From IMG/VR virus record IMGVR_UViG_3300028454_000499, positions 15,135-79,134 of that record: a DNA stretch of 64,000 nucleotides. One strand, given 5' to 3'. Under the pieces are notes generated by a model. The model saw only the letters and a program-made list of their open reading frames with translations, ran no database searches and was not told the DNA's origin. Shown piece after piece: positions 25,758-32,200 of this stretch. The translations under genes were made by a program, and so were the position numbers. The first letter of the stretch is position 1, and each line of letters starts with the position of its first letter. This stretch comes from a virus (lineage: Duplodnaviria; Caudoviricetes).

Positions 25758-26399
25758 TTACAAATTACTCGGCGCAATCTTCCGTAACGATTCAATCAGC
25801 ATCGGATTCTCGCGGAACGCCCGCATGATTTCATCGTAAGATTCACTGTCCAAACGTACCCGAAGAATATCATTGATGATATTCATAGCTTTCTCTACGG
25901 TCTTATAGCAGTACACCTTCTCCTGGATTGCTCCAATCTCGGAAGAAAGCGTTTGTTGCCGTAGGGTCATCTTATCGAGCATATCAATGACCTGCTTCAA
26001 ATCTGAAACCTCTACATCACCATTGCCCACCCTGCGGTCAAGTTCATCAAGTTCAACCGAAATAATGTCCACGGCGTTGTTCACGAGGTTCAGTGCCTTT
26101 ACCTTAGTGCCATACACATTTACCACCTGTTCATCGGTGGGAGCCGTGATGTCACCGCCAAGCCCCTTGTCCCTGCACCACCGGGCAATCGTGTTGTGAG
26201 AAATCTTGTAACCGTTGGGAATCAGATTCCCTTCGTTGATTTCCTTCGTAATGTCCCGGTAACTCTTGCCCTTCATCCGCTTATCGCGGATAAGTTCACC
26301 CAGACCAAACTGTTCTACCAAAGAACCTGTTGCACCATTGGTGTGCATACGATCCGGGGCTTTGTATCCCGGTGGCGGGGCAGGATGATTCCTTGCCAT
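25758..26399 (-). CDS. Probable terminase small subunit (HTH plus coiled coil)
   Basis: N-terminal HTH (KSYRDIT...SHNTIARW), helical C-terminus, upstream of terL. Confidence 0.6.
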   Translation of the reverse strand: MARNHPAPPPGYKAPDRMHTNGATGSLVEQFGLGELIRDKRMKGKSYRDITKEINEGNLIPNGYKISHNTIARWCRDKGLGGDITAPTDEQVVNVYGTKVKALNLVNNAVDIISVELDELDRRVGNGDVEVSDLKQVIDMLDKMTLRQQTLSSEIGAIQEKVYCYKTVEKAMNIINDILRVRLDSESYDEIMRAFRENPMLIESLRKIAPSNL

Positions 26400-26538
26400 A
26401 CCGAACACTCCTTATCTTCTTTGTATAAAAAAAGAGCAAGTGCCGCAGCACTCGCCCCTCGCCGTTCCCCGCAGGTACTAAGCTACTATTTTTACACCAT
26501 TATGCCATTGTAACGCTATACCATTACACAGGTATATA

Positions 26539-27126
26539 TTAGTTAATCCATTTGATTTCCGTGGGGCCTTTGTAACCCTTTTCCCAAACAAACCACGCAT
26601 ATGCGACAGCTGAATTATACGGATAGGAAACAAAATCACCATTTTTAGCACAATTCAACCGCGAAGAACTTACATATACAGTTCGTGGAGGATTTTCTTC
26701 AAAGAATTTCTTGCGTGCCTTCCCTTCCAAGAAAAGCAACTTCAAAAACATTGCCACCTTATTCCCTGCTGGTACTGCCTCCAATGACGCCTTCACAAAA
26801 TCTAAAGCAATCTTGTATGGAGGATTCGTAACAATATCTCCGTCAAACTTATTCTGATTGGCGACGAAATCATAGCTATCTTTTTCACCATAGCCACGCC
26901 ACACTAAGTCAGTGGCCTTAACATTATAACCATGTTCCTCCAAGACCATCGCAATATGTCCTGCGCCGCAAGCTGGTTCCCAGATATTCTCAGAAAATTT
27001 CTCCTGTTCCAGCAAAAGCTCTACGGCCTTTGGCTCGGTAGCATAAAAATCATCTTTTTGTCGTTCACCCAGACTATGATTAGAAGCACCTAAGCCTGCT
27101 AACGCAATACTGCCATCTTTAGCTAT
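26539..27126 (-). CDS. Phage DNA adenine methyltransferase (start uncertain)
   Basis: WEPACGAGHI and TNPPY motifs. The frame stays open upstream of TTG 27015 through GASNH...DFYAT; the only start fitting the AGGAG SD is ATA 27126. Confidence 0.75.
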   Translation of the reverse strand: MAKDGSIALAGLGASNHSLGERQKDDFYATEPKAVELLLEQEKFSENIWEPACGAGHIAMVLEEHGYNVKATDLVWRGYGEKDSYDFVANQNKFDGDIVTNPPYKIALDFVKASLEAVPAGNKVAMFLKLLFLEGKARKKFFEENPPRTVYVSSSRLNCAKNGDFVSYPYNSAVAYAWFVWEKGYKGPTEIKWIN

Positions 27127-27185
27127 TTCGCAACACTCCTTACTAACACATGTATAACTTTATACCATTACACAATTATAATGGC

Positions 27186-27393
27186 GTTTTATTCAGAATC
27201 GGCAGGAGAAGGAATTGCACCTCCAGCATCACCGATGCACCGTTCTACATACGCTCCCACCATAAGGGGGCTTTCGCCCCATAACCTGTTTATGGCCACA
27301 GGCAAGACCTCTGCAATCAAACCTCCAACACATTGCAGCCCCCAGTTTCGTATGGGGTTTTCCGACCACGAGCAGGGGAACACCGAATAAAAC
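27186..27393 (-). ncRNA. Putative ~208-nt structured RNA containing a 61-nt tRNA-like module (27201-27261)
   Basis: Closing 9-bp stem, four hairpins including GGGGC-GAAA-GCCCC, then a cloverleaf with 7-bp acceptor and 5-bp/7-nt T-arm. Confidence 0.6.
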
Positions 27394-29050
27394 AACCACT
27401 AGCGCGAACGCCTGTCTGAAATACTCTGCGAACCCTTGTCCTCTTGTGGCATCGAGGGACGGTAGCTACGTCTTTCAACATTGCAACGGTATACCATTGT
27501 AATGGCGTACCTGTATACCTGTGCTAATTTTTATTGACACATGGTTATTATAATGGTCACCTATGGTAAAAAAAAGAATCCATAGATACCAGTGGTATAC
27601 CAAGTATACCCAAGTAACTTCCAAGGATTTAACCAAGGATAAAAGCGGTAAAGGTATGAGCAACGCGAATACCAAGTGAGCGAAGCGAACTTCAAACCAT
27701 CGAACACCAATGTATACTATGTTGCCCCCTACCCCCACATATAATACGAAAATGGGCACTTTTCGCAACCCTATTTTGGAAAAAAAATGAAAAAAATTTT
27801 TCCAAGCCCCTCCGGAGGGCATTTTCAGCGCTGAAATCCAAGGCTGCCACAAAGTCACTCCCCAGAATCGCCTCTAAGGTACTTCCAAGAATTTTCCCAG
27901 GGAAACTATCGCGGAACTCAAAACAGCCACCTTAGAACCGATGTGAGGGATTCGGCGGGCATTGGTCATTCCAAAGACCTCAAAGCTGCCTACGGTATTC
28001 TATGTATATACCTATGAGAAAAATACAGAAAATTTTTCACACGGTTGGTTTCAAGATTTTCAAGAGCGCATTGGTTAGATTCTTCGCACCCCCGGTGTAT
28101 CTCACTCGATTTCCCACGGTACGCTTGGTTTCAAAGGCGTTTGTACGGTCATCTATGGTGCTCTATGAAGAAAATCACTGTATCACCGGCTTCTTCACTT
28201 ATGCAGCAAGGGCTGACAAGGTTTTTCACAGGTATTCTATGTACATTCTTCCTGTATCACACCCAACGAAGCCTTATGGGACAAGGGATGACAAGGTTTT
28301 TACTATGAAAAAATTTGAAAATGGCGCGGATACGAACTTAGGACTATGCCCGCCCCGGATTCCCCAACGTTTGCGCCATTGGTAGGGATTTTTGCACCCC
28401 TGCCACCCTAAGAAGGAACGAAAACGGCTGCCACCGCCAAAAAAAGCACATCACAGGCACTTTTTGACCTCCCCACAACACAAAACGCCGTCAAGCCACG
28501 CCCTGCAAGGCTTCACGCCACCTATAAAAATATGACTTTATATGTATATAGTCACTTTTTACAGGGTAAAACGTCCCTTTTTTCCTATATTTTGCCATAT
28601 AATCCACCTAAAAAGCCCATAAACGCAAAAAAAGTAACCGCCTATACACTTATTCCTATTTACCATTACAAGGCTATTGCAGGGAAAATATGGGCGAATA
28701 AACCGCCTTTAATCGTTGGTATGGTATTTTTGCTTTGTTCTTTTCCATGTATCCCCTATGTAAAATCCTTATAAATCCCATTGTATCCCTATGTAATTTC
28801 TATTTTTCCCCTATGTTCTCCCCTCCTCCTGCTCATATGCAACGCCCTGGCGCTCATATTTTGCCTATATAATGTAGTTTTTATGTATTACTATGTTTTC
28901 CCTATTCTCTCCCATAATGTGACTTTATATAACTTTGCGCCGTCATCGCTGCCACTGTGACAATTTTTTTTAACACTGCAAAGCCACGCCCTGCAAGGGC
29001 TGACAGTGCTATTATAATAATTAAAATGACTTTTTATAAAAATAATGCTT

Positions 29051-29079
29051 GACTTTGTGTTTTAATAGGCGTAATATAT
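29051..29079 (+). promoter_or_regulatory. Promoter of the early plus-strand gene array
   Basis: TTGACT-17 bp-TAATAT upstream of the first early ORF. Confidence 0.5.
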
Positions 29080-29235
29080 GACTTGTCAAAAGGAAAACAA
29101 CAAAACACCGACCTACACCGTGGGACTTATCGCCGTAACTGTCAAAAGGGAGGGATTAAAGCCACAACGTAGCGGCAAAGTAGGGTTTACCAATGACAAG
29201 CCGATATTAACCAACGTTTTATAGGGGGTAAAAAA

Positions 29236-32200
29236 ATGATTAAAGTAAGCGATGAATTACAAAAAGCAATCAACGTTATCAAACAGCAGGCAAAAGATGA
29301 AGGAATGACACTTGACGAAGTATGTGGGTATACTGATTATGAGCTTTTCGACTACATCACAGGTAGGGGGAATAATCCTGCAATAGATGAAAATTTAATA
29401 AGTGTCGCAAATGAAATTAGAGAACTTCACAAACAACACAGATTAGAAAACAACTGATTTTATTTATTAACACATGAAAAGAGGGTTTAACAATGAAACT
29501 GACCTACAAAGTAAGACGTAATAACGAAGGAAAAATTATTGAAAAATATTTTGCTATTGAAAATTTTACAGACCAGGAAAAACAAAGAATTTTACAGGTA
29601 TTTGCTAATAATGGCGGTGGCCGTCTTTTAGACACTCACGACTATAAAGCAATGATTATTGCTTATGATAAAAATATGGAGTCCCTTGCAGCCTTCAAGG
29701 ATAGAATCAAAGAACTTTATAACATGGCAAAGACTTTGCAGGTTATCACTGTAAAACCTGCCGATAAAAAACAGATTTACACCCCTAAAAACACGAAAAA
29801 AAGAAAACAACGCCGTATTATTCAGATTAACAAGGCGCTTGACCTTTTAGGCGAAAAATGCACTCTATACACCGCTATACATTGCTTGTCATATGTACAG
29901 GAGAAAAGACATCGAAACGGCTATTTTATGGATTATGTAGCATAGTATATTTTTTTACCGTCAATGTTAATTATATTTGTCAGTTGTTAATTATAGGAGG
30001 TTATAACCATGTATATCAAAGTAGAACGTAACTCTTTTAATGATTTTTTTGAAAATGCTTGGAGTGGTGCGCGTGATGTATTGCAGGAAGTGGCAACGCA
30101 AGACAGAGAGGAGGAGGCCGTTAATATTATCACTGAATACATGGAGGGCGAAGAAATCCCAACAGAAACACAGGTCAATGATTTTATATGGTTTGAACTA
30201 TCCGACATCATGGACTTATACAAAGAAGAAATGGAGGGCTAAAAAATGCGTGTACTTATGGAAAACGGCAAAGAAATAAAAATGTTTGGTGGTAAATTCT
30301 GGGGTGTGGAGGTTTCGCCGTATGGCATGGAACACAAAAGACTTGACTATAAAACAATGGTTACAGGATTAACCTATAATGAGTTTTTTGATTGCGGTAA
30401 CATTCTTAATGTTATCGATGATTGGGAATGTATAACAGATAATGATTATAACGAAGAAACCGGGAAATATTACGAAATTATGAATTATTTCATAGTAAGC
30501 GAGCGGGCAGCCGAAAATCTAAAAAAATATACAGATGAAATCGTCTTTTATTCACCGTCCGCTGACTTGTATTTGTTCGGTGTAGTCCATTGTGGAACAT
30601 CCTGGGATTATGTATTGACTAGCTACGAAATTATGGGGGAATAACATCATGGATATTATCGCAAGTAAACCAGAATCTGCATTTAGTGCCATTGTCCTGC
30701 ATAGCATAGACAGTGAAAAGGTGGTGTTTTCCTACGAATGGGAGGGCGTGGACAAATTGGAACACACAAAGAAAACACCGTCAAAAATCAGATACACCGC
30801 AAAAGATAGGGCGTATTTTATCGGCAGGGGCCGCCGTCAATACTTAGATGAATTTATGAGATATTAACCAATAGAAGGGACCAGGGCAGCCCCCTGGTCC
30901 GGCAGGAGGATAAAAACCATGATTAAAAAAGCGAATACGAAAATTATTGACCTTGTGATGTATGTTATCGGCTTATATAGCCGTAAAAAAACAGTGGTGA
31001 CCTGTGACGGCGTGTTTTGTGGCTATGCTTACAGTAGTTACCCATTGCGCCGGTATTTATGGACTATGGTTTTACTTGTTGCCGTGCTCGTTGGTTTATT
31101 CGTGGAGGGATAACAATGCTAAAAGAAGAATACACCGCGACTATTACCCTGCATGATGGAACTACCGAAAAGGTAGACCGTGAAATATTCCAAAAACTAA
31201 GCAGGGGAATAATAGAGTTCCCCCCGGATATTGAAACGGCTGCATATTATGGTATAGACGATTTAACAGGACTATGGGGGGATGTTGTGCCGTTTCGTGT
31301 ATACGATAACATAAACAAGTCACCGTCTTTGTTATCTGTACGAATTGATTTAATTATCGCTATATATAACGGGGAATATATGGAGGGCTAAAAAGTGGGC
31401 ACAATGTGGATTGACGAACAAAACGCGGTTTATTTCTACGATAAAGACAGGCCAGACCAGGTTTATTGTTATGATAGATACACCGGCGAAAAATTCAAGG
31501 CAAGAATAATATTAAACAAAGAAAAGATAATTGAGAATGTGGGGCAAAAATTATATGACAAATACCATCACCAATATTTATTAGTTGACGAAACACAAAT
31601 AAAGCACCTACCGCGCGAATTTATGAATTATATTCGTAGAAAATCAAAGAATGTAAAATGTGACCTGTATTGCCATCTAGGATATTAACACATGAAAAGA
31701 GGTTGATTAAATTATGAAAATGCAAAGAATTATTGATGTATTGCCACATGGTAGCGGTGTTAATTATGACTATGAAATTAAAGTCGCGCCGAATGGTAAA
31801 AAGATTACTGTATACAACAAATATGACTATATGGACGAAAACGGCTTTTATAACGATGTATTCCCGTTTTCTGTATCGTTTACCGCTGAAAATGCAACCT
31901 TGCATTTTCATAATTTAACCAGCGGTCAATACAAGAAAATTCACCGGGAGGGAATACGCGAATACTTAGAGGACATTTATTATGATGTGCTAGGCGCAAT
32001 AATGGGGATTATGCCGTATTCGTTGGATAATGGAGGACACAGAAAATGAGAATTGAAAAGAAAATTGTTGCAGCCGTTTATATCCCTGCCCACATTGAAA
32101 CAACTAAAATCTATGAATTTAATGAACTAGCTCAGGACGTGCAAAGAAAACTGATTGTCAAAGAATTTAATAACCTTGACATTGATTTTATTGTCGATGA

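What the first reader, a model, noticed from the sequence alone, without database searches (positions are those of the whole stretch)
27186..27393. 61-nt tRNA-like fold lacking a normal anticodon loop, inside a ~208-nt structured RNA upstream of the packaging operon
Seen (minus strand, 27261 to 27201): GGTGGGA|G|CGT-ATGTAGA-ACG|GT|GCATC-GGT-GATGC|T|GGAGG-TGCAATT-CCTTC|TCCTGCC. This gives a 7-bp acceptor stem (two G-U pairs), a mini D-arm, a 5-bp arm with only a 3-nt loop, and a canonical 5-bp/7-nt T-arm. CCA is not encoded. Four hairpins precede it (CCCCA/TGGGG, CTGCAAT/ATTGCAG, CCTGT/ACAGG, GGGGC-GAAA-GCCCC), and a 9-bp stem (GTTTTATTC/GAATAAAAC) closes the whole. The GNRA loop reads only on the minus strand, the late-operon strand. 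Inference: it cannot decode, so it may be an RNase P/Z processing element (mascRNA or t-element-like), a tRNA decoy against anticodon nucleases or tRNA-sensing defences, or a new phage ncRNA class.
Basis: partly seen in the sequence, partly recalled or inferred. Interest (0 to 1): 0.75.

Follow-up and report, generated by a model that had tools for sequence, protein, structure and literature searches.

The report
Anticodon-less tRNA tail on phage RNA
A phage carries a tRNA-shaped element that has lost its anticodon loop and sits at the 3' end of a conserved, previously undescribed folded RNA; in related phages the same spot holds a real tRNA, another anticodon-less tRNA shape or a terminator, so it most likely serves to cut or end that RNA rather than to decode.

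Summary
The 61-nt cloverleaf (27261-27201, minus strand) and the four hairpins before it are in the sequence. ARAGORN and Rfam find no tRNA or known family there.

The cloverleaf derives from a tRNA. Its T-arm and 3' acceptor strand match a real phage tRNA-Met exactly.

It lies directly 3' of a conserved RNA, about 27469-27262. I found this RNA in about 13 distinct phage contigs related by small terminase. Helices P1-P4 covary strongly: 92.9% standard pairs, and 23 of 30 pairs change on both sides.

The slot after this RNA holds one of:
- a genuine tRNA (Tyr, Met or Lys);
- a tRNA body whose anticodon loop is cut to 3, 4 or 6 nt, for example a GAAA tetraloop that still scores 54.8 bits as tRNA;
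- a terminator.

The junction is always ...AU|G.

Best reading (about 0.5): a new phage small-RNA family whose 3' end is made by tRNA-processing enzymes acting on a non-decoding tRNA handle, or otherwise by a terminator. This resembles MALAT1-mascRNA.

Weak points:
- there is no expression data;
- fold energies are unremarkable;
- the function of the core RNA is unknown.

The scan had noted this same stretch once before, in this genome only.

The parts
27201..27261 (-). Anticodon-less tRNA-like element. Acceptor 7 bp, D stem 3 bp, a 5-bp 'anticodon' stem capped by the triloop GGU, T arm GGAGG-UGCAAUU-CCUUC. No CCA is encoded.
   Evidence: Sequence. The minimum-energy fold is the cloverleaf. 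No ARAGORN or Rfam call. The T-arm and acceptor are identical to the tRNA-Met at L083:286-360. L085 is 60/61 identical. The same slot in relatives holds tRNAs or tRNA-likes.
27262..27469 (-). Conserved structured RNA. The 5' domain starts with the palindrome GUAGCUAC. A lineage-specific insert of about 75 nt follows, then the core P1-P4 and the tail CUUAU.
   Evidence: Homologous in L084, L085, L099, L086, L095/96/105, L103, L111, L113, L116, L118 and L121. Covariation.
27340..27357 (-). P1 hairpin: CCCCA / UGGGG with the conserved loop motif ACGA.
   Evidence: 88.8% standard pairs over 15 sequences; 5 of 6 pairs change on both sides.
27311..27338 (-). P2 hairpin: CUGCAAU / AUUGCAG. The loop ends in the conserved GGUUYG.
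   Evidence: 95.2% paired; all 7 pairs change on both sides.
27285..27302 (-). P3 hairpin: CCUGU / ACAGG with the conserved loop GGCCAUAA.
   Evidence: 98.7% paired; 5 of 5 pairs change on both sides.
27267..27280 (-). P4 hairpin: GGGGC-GAAA-GCCCC. The loop is GNRA in most lineages. In L113 and L111, P4 plus its U-rich tail scores as an intrinsic terminator.
   Evidence: 100% paired; 3 of 5 pairs change on both sides. Terminator scans.
27259..27296 (-). Possible pseudoknot between the P3 loop (27296-27290) and the 3' tail UUAUGGU (27265-27259). The last three partners are nt 1-3 of the tRNA-like element.
   Evidence: Hand-registered pairs: 84% standard. The four A/U pairs are nearly invariant, with one compensatory change in L103. 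The G/C pairs fail in L116, L118 and L111. Tentative.
27477..27508 (-). Promoter-like or operator block A (ACGCCAUUACAAUGGUAUACC...), just 5' of the RNA.
   Evidence: Direct repeat D3 with 27156-27187. The same type of block stands before the RNA in L099 and L121.
27156..27187 (-). Promoter-like block B (..CCAUUAUAAUUGUGUAAUGGUAUAAAG..), between the tRNA-like element and the methyltransferase gene.
   Evidence: Conserved in L084 and L085.
26539..27141 (-). DNA methyltransferase gene. The open frame has no ATG, GTG or TTG before 27015.
   Evidence: PHROG 799 at E 6.6e-60, matching residues 17-200 of the read-through frame. ORF list.
26431..26460 (-). Strong intrinsic terminator: 13-bp stem plus UUUUUUUAU, about 15 nt before the small-terminase ribosome-binding site. 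It is preceded by promoter-like block C at 26495-26535.
   Evidence: Equivalent terminator-like hairpin + U-run sequences read (not scanned) before the small-terminase gene in L084, L099, L116 and L121.
27741..27768 (-). Sigma-70-like promoter (TTGCGA-16-TATTAT) in a block conserved in distant relatives.
   Evidence: Block 27800-27736 is conserved in L103 and L095/L096.

Best explanation
The 61-nt cloverleaf descends from a phage tRNA gene of the tRNA-Met type. Its anticodon loop has been cut to three bases, so it no longer decodes.

It is the 3' module of a separate, conserved small RNA of about 205 nt in this phage. That RNA has a core of four hairpins, P1-P4, and perhaps a pseudoknot that tucks in the tail ...CUUAU. 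It is transcribed on the late-gene strand from a promoter-like block at about 27480-27510.

Proposed mechanism. The tRNA-shaped module recruits the host's tRNA-maturation enzymes. RNase P cuts between U27262 and G27261. This gives the small RNA a defined 3' end and separates it from the downstream methyltransferase message. RNase Z or exonucleases, and perhaps CCA addition, trim the 61-nt by-product.

In relatives the same job is done by a genuine tRNA, by other anticodon-less tRNA bodies, or by an intrinsic terminator.

Shown: tRNA descent, the conserved RNA with covarying helices, slot interchangeability, and selective loss of the anticodon loop.

Inferred: transcription, RNase P/Z cleavage, and 3'-end protection.

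Unknown: what the core RNA itself does.
For: 1. tRNA descent. The 20 nt of T-arm plus acceptor match exactly a true tRNA-Met (L083) and a truncated relic (L082). The D-loop GUAGA is also shared.

2. A conserved RNA lies immediately 5'. Over 15 sequences and 410 pair cells, 92.9% are standard pairs and 23 of 30 pairs change on both sides. With slid partners the figure is 33-49%. None of 1000 column shuffles reaches the observed values (11-sequence version). G-U cells outnumber A-C cells 33 to 5, so the minus strand is the RNA strand.

3. Occupancy of the slot 3' of the core:
- tRNA-Tyr in L103;
- tRNA-Met in L098, and tRNA-Lys plus tRNA-Met in L087;
- a tRNA body with a GAAA tetraloop in L111, scoring 54.8 bits as Rfam tRNA and called 'tRNA-??? 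(aa)' by ARAGORN;
- an AGAA tetraloop in L121, 37 bits;
- the 6-nt loop GAUGAG on stems that differ by compensatory changes in L116 and L118;
- a non-canonical 7-nt loop in L084, 36.3 bits;
- a hairpin plus U-run in L095/96/105, z = -3.5;
- P4 plus a U-run acting as terminator in L113.

4. Only the anticodon loop is lost. Acceptor and T arms are kept throughout, and the D arm in most members. This is the part of a tRNA that RNase P, RNase Z and the CCA-adding enzyme recognise (established knowledge).

5. The junction reads ...AU|G in the 13 sequences (10 lineages) that carry P4 and still have the tail. U at -1 is the leader base bacterial RNase P prefers (my knowledge).

6. The phage has no other tRNA gene, so this is not part of a working tRNA set.
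Against:
- Fold energies are not exceptional.
- The near-identity of window and L085 from P3 to the end of the cloverleaf (96-98%), against 62-74% further 5', looks like recent recombination. It cannot be read as purifying selection.
- L099 carries a deletion that removes most of the 5' acceptor strand. L084 has two acceptor mismatches. Some copies are therefore decaying.
- Some relatives by small terminase lack the RNA altogether: L114, L115, L120, L093 and L094.
- My covariation table is registered by hand to the proposed helices, because the MAFFT and covariance-model alignments were out of register. This favours pairing.
- The window's cloverleaf has only a 3-bp D stem and an unusual T-loop, and it fails the tRNA model.
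Confidence: 0.5

Rival explanations
1. Plain relic. The cloverleaf is a dying tRNA gene left from a phage tRNA cluster and has no function of its own. Only the upstream RNA, or nothing, is under selection.
For: - Relatives carry true tRNAs in and around the slot.
- A tRNA-Met 3' remnant is visible in L086.
- L099 has a disabling deletion and L084 has acceptor mismatches.
- A bare acceptor/T-arm remnant of the same tRNA type sits in the unrelated phage L082.
- The window's copy fails the tRNA model.
- The window-L085 identity can be explained by recombination.
Against: - Random decay should hit stems as often as loops.
- Instead, four or five separate lineages keep intact acceptor and T arms (and in most a D arm) and replace only the anticodon loop with a tidy 3-6-nt cap. 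L111 still scores 54.8 bits and L121 37 bits.
- L116 and L118 keep the same 6-nt loop on stems that differ by compensatory changes.
Confidence: 0.17
2. Cis-acting leader. The folded RNA is a transcription-control element of the late operon: an attenuator, a riboswitch-like element, or a put-like antiterminator. The tRNA-like or terminator hairpin would be its expression platform, and the pseudoknot would compete with the first bases of that hairpin.
For: - The RNA always lies between a conserved promoter region and the small-terminase gene.
- A strong terminator precedes the small-terminase gene in the window (scanned); terminator-like hairpin + U-run sequences sit at that place in relatives (read by eye).
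- In L095-type phages the RNA is followed at once by a hairpin plus U-run.
- The pseudoknot's 3' strand overlaps nt 1-3 of the next stem.
Against: - A terminator-type platform is absent in the window: no U-run follows the cloverleaf.
- In L103, L098 and L087 the 'platform' is a genuine tRNA.
- In L095, L105 and L118 the RNA follows a tRNA by 9-10 nt, with no room for a promoter of its own, and in L116 a tRNA lies just upstream too. This fits co-processing with tRNAs better than a leader switch.
- RNase P cleavage would sever a put-like RNA from the polymerase.
- The G/C part of the pseudoknot is not conserved.
Confidence: 0.15
3. Decoy or sponge. The anticodon-less tRNA body is itself the product. 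It would be a non-cleavable tRNA mimic that soaks up host tRNA-directed defence enzymes or other tRNA-binding proteins.
For: - The tRNA body is kept while the anticodon loop, the usual cut site, is removed in several lineages.
- Phage tRNAs are known to evade anticodon nucleases through loop changes (PMC10264068, found; title and abstract only were read).
Against: - The tRNA-like type is not conserved: Met-type 1, Met-type 2 and long-arm types occur. It can also be replaced by a terminator (L113, L095), whereas the upstream RNA is the constant part.
- Anticodon nucleases generally need the loop to bind.
- No defence or counter-defence gene is linked to it.
Confidence: 0.12
4. DNA-level element. 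The conserved block is a packaging (pac/cos) or replication site, read as double-stranded DNA between repeated protein-binding blocks, and not an RNA.
For: - It lies just upstream of the small-terminase gene, between repeated GGTATAC / TAATGG blocks.
- An HNH protein sits between the two terminase genes.
- A Rep_3 initiator borders the same gene-free region in L111.
Against: - Helix-preserving double changes in four hairpins, and a 33:5 excess of G-U over A-C cells, are signatures of a single-stranded RNA of one strand.
- True tRNA genes sit inside the unit in relatives.
Confidence: 0.04

Closest known systems
MALAT1 / MEN-beta with mascRNA (vertebrate nuclear long non-coding RNAs)
   Same: A cloverleaf of about 61 nt with a shortened anticodon arm sits directly 3' of a longer non-coding RNA. 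By inference it is cut off by RNase P, making the upstream RNA's 3' end, which is then held in a local structure. Here that structure is possibly a pseudoknot; there it is a triple helix.
   Different: Phage and bacterial setting. No A-rich triple-helix element. Cleavage is not shown. In relatives the handle can be a working tRNA or a terminator. No sequence relationship.
Phage T4 species 1 and species 2 RNAs (rnaC, rnaD) and the P1/P7 C4 RNA precursor
   Same: Small stable phage RNAs that mature through tRNA-processing enzymes, RNase P among them. The T4 RNAs are encoded inside the phage tRNA cluster. (From my own knowledge, not checked here.)
   Different: No sequences were at hand to compare. 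The T4 RNAs carry tRNA-like ends within themselves rather than a separate cloverleaf. C4 is matured at its 5' end and acts as an antisense repressor. No antisense target was found here.
GOLLD and ROOL RNAs
   Same: Structured RNAs of unknown function in phages and prophages, often near tRNA islands. GOLLD sometimes has tRNAs in its linker (PMC12286853). ROOL is named rumen-originating; where these contigs were sampled was not established.
   Different: No Rfam match even at E<=10. The core is about 105-205 nt, against 580-800 nt or more. The secondary structure differs.
Bacterial Y RNAs (YrlA)
   Same: Non-coding RNAs with a tRNA-like module that RNase P can cut and that can receive CCA. They also occur in phages (PMC4201824).
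   Different: In YrlA the tRNA-like module is internal and its anticodon stem continues into the Ro-binding helix. Here the acceptor end is open and the anticodon stem is capped. No Ro/TROVE gene in the phage. No Rfam YrlA match.
Murine gammaherpesvirus 68 tRNA-miRNA units
   Same: Virus-encoded tRNA-like elements that are not used for decoding and serve as processing handles for linked small RNAs. (From my own knowledge.)
   Different: There the tRNA-like element lies upstream and RNase Z releases the downstream hairpins. It is a eukaryotic virus transcribed by RNA polymerase III.

Membership tests
tRNA (Rfam RF00005 / ARAGORN) | Score at or above the family gathering score (29 bits), or an ARAGORN call | tested here: not met
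   No hit in the window at gathering score or at E<=10, and none in the whole record. ARAGORN makes 0 calls. The counterparts in L084, L121 and L111 do pass, at 36.3, 37.0 and 54.8 bits.
tRNA (Rfam RF00005 / ARAGORN) | 7-nt anticodon loop with U33 and a purine at 37 | tested here: not met
   The loop is 3 nt, GGU, on a 5-bp stem.
tRNA (Rfam RF00005 / ARAGORN) | Cloverleaf with acceptor, D and T arms, and descent from a tRNA gene | tested here: met
   The minimum-energy fold is the cloverleaf. The 20-nt T-arm plus acceptor string is identical to a true tRNA-Met. True tRNAs occupy the same slot in relatives.
mascRNA-type tRNA-like 3'-end processing element | Cloverleaf with a reduced anticodon arm directly 3' of a longer conserved non-coding RNA | tested here: met
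mascRNA-type tRNA-like 3'-end processing element | RNase P cleavage at the 5' end of the cloverleaf; RNase Z trimming and CCA addition | not testable with these tools
   Indirect only: U-1 is conserved at the junction, and the parts of a tRNA these enzymes recognise are retained.
mascRNA-type tRNA-like 3'-end processing element | The upstream RNA's new 3' end is protected by local structure | tested here: inconclusive
   Pairing of the tail UUAU with the P3 loop is possible in most members but is nearly invariant. There is one compensatory change, and it fails in part in L116 and L118.
YrlA / bacterial Y RNA | Match to the family model and a linked Ro60 (TROVE) gene | tested here: not met
   No Rfam match. 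No TROVE domain in the 79-kb record.
tmRNA | tRNA-like domain plus a tag reading frame, detectable by ARAGORN or Rfam | tested here: not met
GOLLD / ROOL | Match to RF01998 / RF03087; size of several hundred nt | tested here: not met
   No match at E<=10 over 27000-29300, nor in relatives.
Intrinsic-terminator-ended small RNA | GC-rich hairpin followed by a U-run at the RNA's 3' end | tested here: inconclusive
   P4 plus its tail passes the terminator scan in L113 and L111. It does not pass in the window, where the tail is CUUAUGG.

The most novel reading that the evidence does not exclude
Phages use a bacterial counterpart of the MALAT1-mascRNA device. A new family of pseudoknotted small RNAs gets its 3' end from RNase P cutting at a purpose-kept, anticodon-less tRNA body. 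The released 'blind' tRNA (with a tri-, tetra- or hexaloop instead of an anticodon) is itself a stable product that occupies tRNA-binding host factors late in infection.
Probability: 0.25. Interest if true: 0.8.

Novelty: new variant of a known kind. Interest (0 to 1): 0.66.

Why it matters
Two things would be new if this holds.

First, a structured phage RNA family with clear covariation that is not in Rfam 15. It is confined so far to one lineage of roughly 50-80-kb phages that share a small terminase, all known only from metagenome-type contigs and IMG virus records. It sits in the long gene-free region ahead of the packaging genes.

Second, a set of natural tRNA bodies whose anticodon loop has been cleanly replaced by short caps. 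One such copy still scores 54.8 bits as tRNA with a GAAA tetraloop.

This is direct comparative evidence that a tRNA shape can be kept for something other than decoding in a bacterial virus. It gives a testable bacterial parallel to tRNA-like processing signals known from vertebrate long non-coding RNAs and herpesviruses. It also bears on the old question of why phage tRNA clusters carry non-tRNA stable RNAs, such as T4 species 1 and 2, GOLLD and ROOL.

For annotation, such elements are missed by tRNA finders or reported as 'tRNA-???'.

Tried and rejected
- Known families: Rfam at gathering score and at permissive E-values, on the window and on relatives, gave only chance hits such as SNORD87, Bacilli-1 and bxd_5.
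- BLAST of the region against 50,697 phage records: no match.
The large terminase is only about 36% identical to Mu-like phage terminases. The host stays unknown.
- Link to the methyltransferase: 80 phage loci with the same methyltransferase family lack the RNA.
- DNA patterns from the core gave only the two known relatives, or chance hits inside genes (L108-L110).
- Antisense target idea: reverse complements of the conserved single-stranded stretches occur at chance frequency in the window.
- Y RNA idea: no TROVE gene.
- Closing 9-bp stem: not conserved.
- Automatic alignments: MAFFT alignments A4 and A7 and covariance-model alignments A5 and A6 put P1, P2 and the pseudoknot of the L095 group, and the window's cloverleaf, out of register. 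I therefore registered the pairs by hand from sequence indices. An automatic hairpin finder picked spurious alternative stems.
- The paper on 10,006 candidate viral structured RNAs (PMC10690425) could not be checked for this motif, because no supplement is held.

Full report
**Where it lies**

The window is part of a 79,134-bp IMG/VR virus record with 98% estimated completeness. The finding sits on the minus strand inside a region of about 2.1 kb without credible genes (27130-29235).

On one side, on the minus strand, are:
- a DNA methyltransferase (PHROG 799);
- the small terminase (25758-26408);
- a Bro-N/HNH protein;
- the large terminase (PHROG 38);
- portal, protease and capsid genes.

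On the other side, small plus-strand genes start at 29236.

**Check of the observation**

RNAfold returns the cloverleaf for 27261-27201 and the four hairpins before it.

No known family claims the element:
- ARAGORN finds no tRNA or tmRNA in the window.
- Rfam gives nothing at gathering score and only chance hits at E<=10.
- The tRNA model finds nothing in the whole phage record.

Fold energies are not better than shuffled sequence: z = -0.5 for the cloverleaf, -1.1 for the core and -1.8 for the 208 nt. Energy alone therefore does not show that the element is real.

**It derives from a tRNA**

The 20 nt GGAGGTGCAATTCCTTCTCC (T arm plus the start of the 3' acceptor strand) occur exactly in two unrelated phage contigs.
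- In L083 they are the T arm of a tRNA-Met called by ARAGORN (286-360). That tRNA also shares the odd D-loop GUAGA.
- In L082 they form a bare acceptor/T-arm remnant next to a six-tRNA array.

The unusual T-loop UGCAAUU is therefore that of a real tRNA type.

**Relatives and the conserved upstream RNA**

I collected relatives through the small terminase from three sources:
- IMG/VR;
- metagenomes;
- the large protein collection followed by contig look-ups.

nhmmer and a covariance model (R1) find a homologous RNA directly upstream of the tRNA-like slot in these loci:
- L084, L085, L099, L086, L095/L096/L105 and L103;
- L111/L112, L113, L116/L117, L118/L119 and L121;
- a reduced P1-P3 form in L098 and, by eye only (the R1 model scored no hit there), L087.

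It is absent from 80 phage loci that share only the methyltransferase. It is also absent from some relatives by small terminase (L093, L094, L114, L115, L120).

The conserved RNA begins with a palindrome (GUAGCUAC, or GCUAUAGC in the other subgroup) followed by CCGU. In the window that is at 27469. It ends in the tail (C/U)UUAU just before the tRNA-like element.

**Covariation**

The automatic alignments were out of register for part of the family. I therefore fixed the pairs from sequence indices and counted them.

Over 15 sequences and 410 pair cells:
- 92.9% are standard pairs;
- 23 of 30 pair positions show changes on both sides;
- with the 3' partner slid by 1-3 positions, pairing is only 33-49%;
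- none of 1000 column shuffles reached the observed pairing or the number of doubly changed pairs.

| Helix | Standard pairs | Pairs changed on both sides |
|---|---|---|
| P1 | 88.8% | 5 of 6 |
| P2 | 95.2% | 7 of 7 |
| P3 | 98.7% | 5 of 5 |
| P4 | 100% | 3 of 5 |

G-U cells outnumber A-C cells 33 to 5, which fixes the minus strand as the RNA strand. Single-sequence folds of the divergent members give the same four hairpins independently.

Caveat: an alignment fitted by hand to a structure leans towards that structure.

A pseudoknot between the P3 loop and the tail is possible. AUAA or GUAA would pair with UUAU, followed by CC with GG. The A/U part hardly varies, with one compensatory change in L103. 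The G/C part fails in L111, L116 and L118. It would also use nt 1-3 of the next element. I rate it tentative.

**What follows the core in each lineage**

This is the most informative result.

| Locus | Element 3' of the core | Evidence |
|---|---|---|
| L103 | Genuine tRNA-Tyr (49.4 bits), starting right after ...UUUAAU | |
| L098 | tRNA-Met | |
| L087 | tRNA-Lys plus tRNA-Met | |
| L111 | Perfect tRNA body with a GAAA tetraloop for the anticodon loop (54.8 bits; ARAGORN 'tRNA-??? (aa)'; the fold is a clean cloverleaf) | |
| L121 | AGAA tetraloop (37.0 bits) | |
| L116, L118 | Same 6-nt loop GAUGAG on stems that differ by compensatory changes (UGUAC/GUACA against CGCAC/GUGCG) | |
| L084 | tRNA-like with a 7-nt loop lacking U33 (36.3 bits, no ARAGORN call) | |
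| L099 | The same type as L084, with a deletion that removes P4's 3' strand and most of the 5' acceptor strand | |
| L086 | Acceptor and T arm around a 17-bp hairpin | |
| L095, L096, L105 | 7-bp stem with an inner hairpin, followed by a U-run (z = -3.5) | |
| L113 | No extra element; P4 plus UUUAUUUU is itself terminator-like | |
| window, L085 | Triloop version | |

In the 13 sequences (10 lineages) that carry P4 and still have the tail, the junction reads ...AU|G.

Upstream neighbours:
- In L095, L105 and L118 the core follows a tRNA-Met by 9-10 nt; in L116 a tRNA-Tyr lies about 65 nt upstream of the R1 core match.
- In the window, L099 and L121 it is preceded by a promoter-like block.

**Reading**

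The constant part is the folded RNA. The variable part is whatever makes its 3' end.

Real tRNAs, 'blind' tRNA bodies and terminators replace one another at this spot. The blind copies lose only the anticodon loop and keep the acceptor and T arms (and the D arm in most). That is the part recognised by RNase P, RNase Z and the CCA-adding enzyme (established knowledge). This fits a processing handle better than free decay.

U at -1 is the leader base preferred by bacterial RNase P (my knowledge). Where the intrinsic terminator is strong (L113, the L095 group) no tRNA shape is present. Where P4's U-tail is broken, as in the window (CUUAUGG, no terminator call), a tRNA shape follows.

In the window no terminator follows the cloverleaf. 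A cut there would separate the small RNA from the methyltransferase message. That message ends at a strong terminator (26460-26431) about 15 nt before the small-terminase ribosome-binding site.

**Limits**

- No transcript data could be obtained.
- Identity to the window is mosaic:

| Segment | L084 | L085 |
|---|---|---|
| 5' domain | 81% | 62% |
| P1-P2 | 86% | 74% |
| P3 through the tail | 69% | 96% |
| Cloverleaf | 49% | 98% |

  This points to recombination inside the unit, so the 60/61 identity of the cloverleaf cannot be used as evidence of selection.
- Some copies are damaged (L099, L084).
- The function of the core RNA is unknown. Searches for antisense targets in the window were at chance, and no Ro/TROVE partner exists.

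**Comparison with known systems**

It works most like the MALAT1-mascRNA arrangement: a cloverleaf with a reduced anticodon arm, 3' of a non-coding RNA. It also resembles small stable RNAs matured with tRNAs in phages, namely T4 species 1 and 2 and the P1/P7 C4 precursor (from memory, not tested).

It shares the 'phage RNA next to tRNA islands' setting of GOLLD and ROOL (PMC12286853). It shares the 'tRNA mimic that RNase P can cut' property of YrlA (PMC4201824). It is a member of none of these by model or by partner gene.

It fails membership in tRNA on score, ARAGORN call and anticodon loop, although it is tRNA-derived.

**Verdict**

- The upstream RNA is a new covarying family.
- Novelty: a new variant of a known kind.
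- Interest: 0.66.
- The scan had noted the same stretch once before, in this genome only (e1-5893213).

Noticed in passing
window 27130-29235: A region of about 2.1 kb without credible genes lies between the late operon and the plus-strand small genes. It has many short repeats, such as ..CATAG.., CCTTGCAGGGCGTGGCTT twice, and GGGGGTAGGGGG. Blocks of it are conserved even in distant relatives (27800-27736, 28554-28531, 28406-28306, 29078-29011 with L103). Comparable gene-free stretches of 0.8-2.4 kb precede the small-terminase gene in all relatives. In L111 the stretch borders a Rep_3 initiator gene, so an origin with iterons or further RNAs may lie here.
   Followed up: partly
window 27477-27508, 27156-27187, 26495-26535: Three copies of a promoter-like or operator block (..CCATTAyAAT.., GTAATGGTATA, extended -10-like TGGTATAAA). 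They stand before the RNA, before the methyltransferase and before the small-terminase leader. GGTATACC palindromes lie at 27594-27601 and 27488-27495. L095-type phages have a different repeat (AGAGGTATRG, five copies) at the same place. These could be late promoters or terminase-binding sites.
   Followed up: partly
window 26431-26460: A strong intrinsic terminator (13-bp stem, UUUUUUUAU) lies about 15 nt before the small-terminase ribosome-binding site. Terminator-like hairpin + U-run sequences sit at that place in L084, L099, L116 and L121 (read by eye, not scanned). Late-operon transcription would need read-through or antitermination.
   Followed up: partly
window 27015-27141: The methyltransferase frame is open and homologous upstream of its first ATG/GTG/TTG at 27015; the PHROG match starts at residue 17 of the frame read from 27141. 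After the AAGGAG at 27141-27136, the only nearby candidate starts are ATA (27126) and ATT (27108). So the start codon is non-canonical or the N-terminus is broken.
   Followed up: partly
L103:3313-3387 and L111:3376-3446: Two tRNA-like genes with 8-nt anticodon loops. ARAGORN reports four-base 'anticodons' gcag and agta. They score 43.5 and 47.6 bits as Rfam tRNA and lie upstream of the core RNA or the methyltransferase gene. They could be further blind tRNAs or quadruplet-type tRNAs.
   Followed up: no
L082:8455-8490 (minus strand): An unrelated 79-kb phage carries a bare acceptor-stem plus T-arm remnant of the same tRNA-Met type just upstream of a six-tRNA array. The D and anticodon arms are deleted.
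   Followed up: no
L084:3610-3769 and L121:2568-2727: Weak partial matches to Rfam throat-1 RNA recur at equivalent places in two relatives (18-20 bits, E 0.3-0.5, far below the gathering score of 124). They lie in an insert that the window lacks.
   Followed up: no
window 27462-27469 and relatives: The RNA's 5' end is an 8-nt palindrome that changes as a palindrome between subgroups (GUAGCUAC against GCUAUAGC). This suggests either a dimeric protein site at the transcription start or RNA-RNA self-pairing.
   Followed up: no
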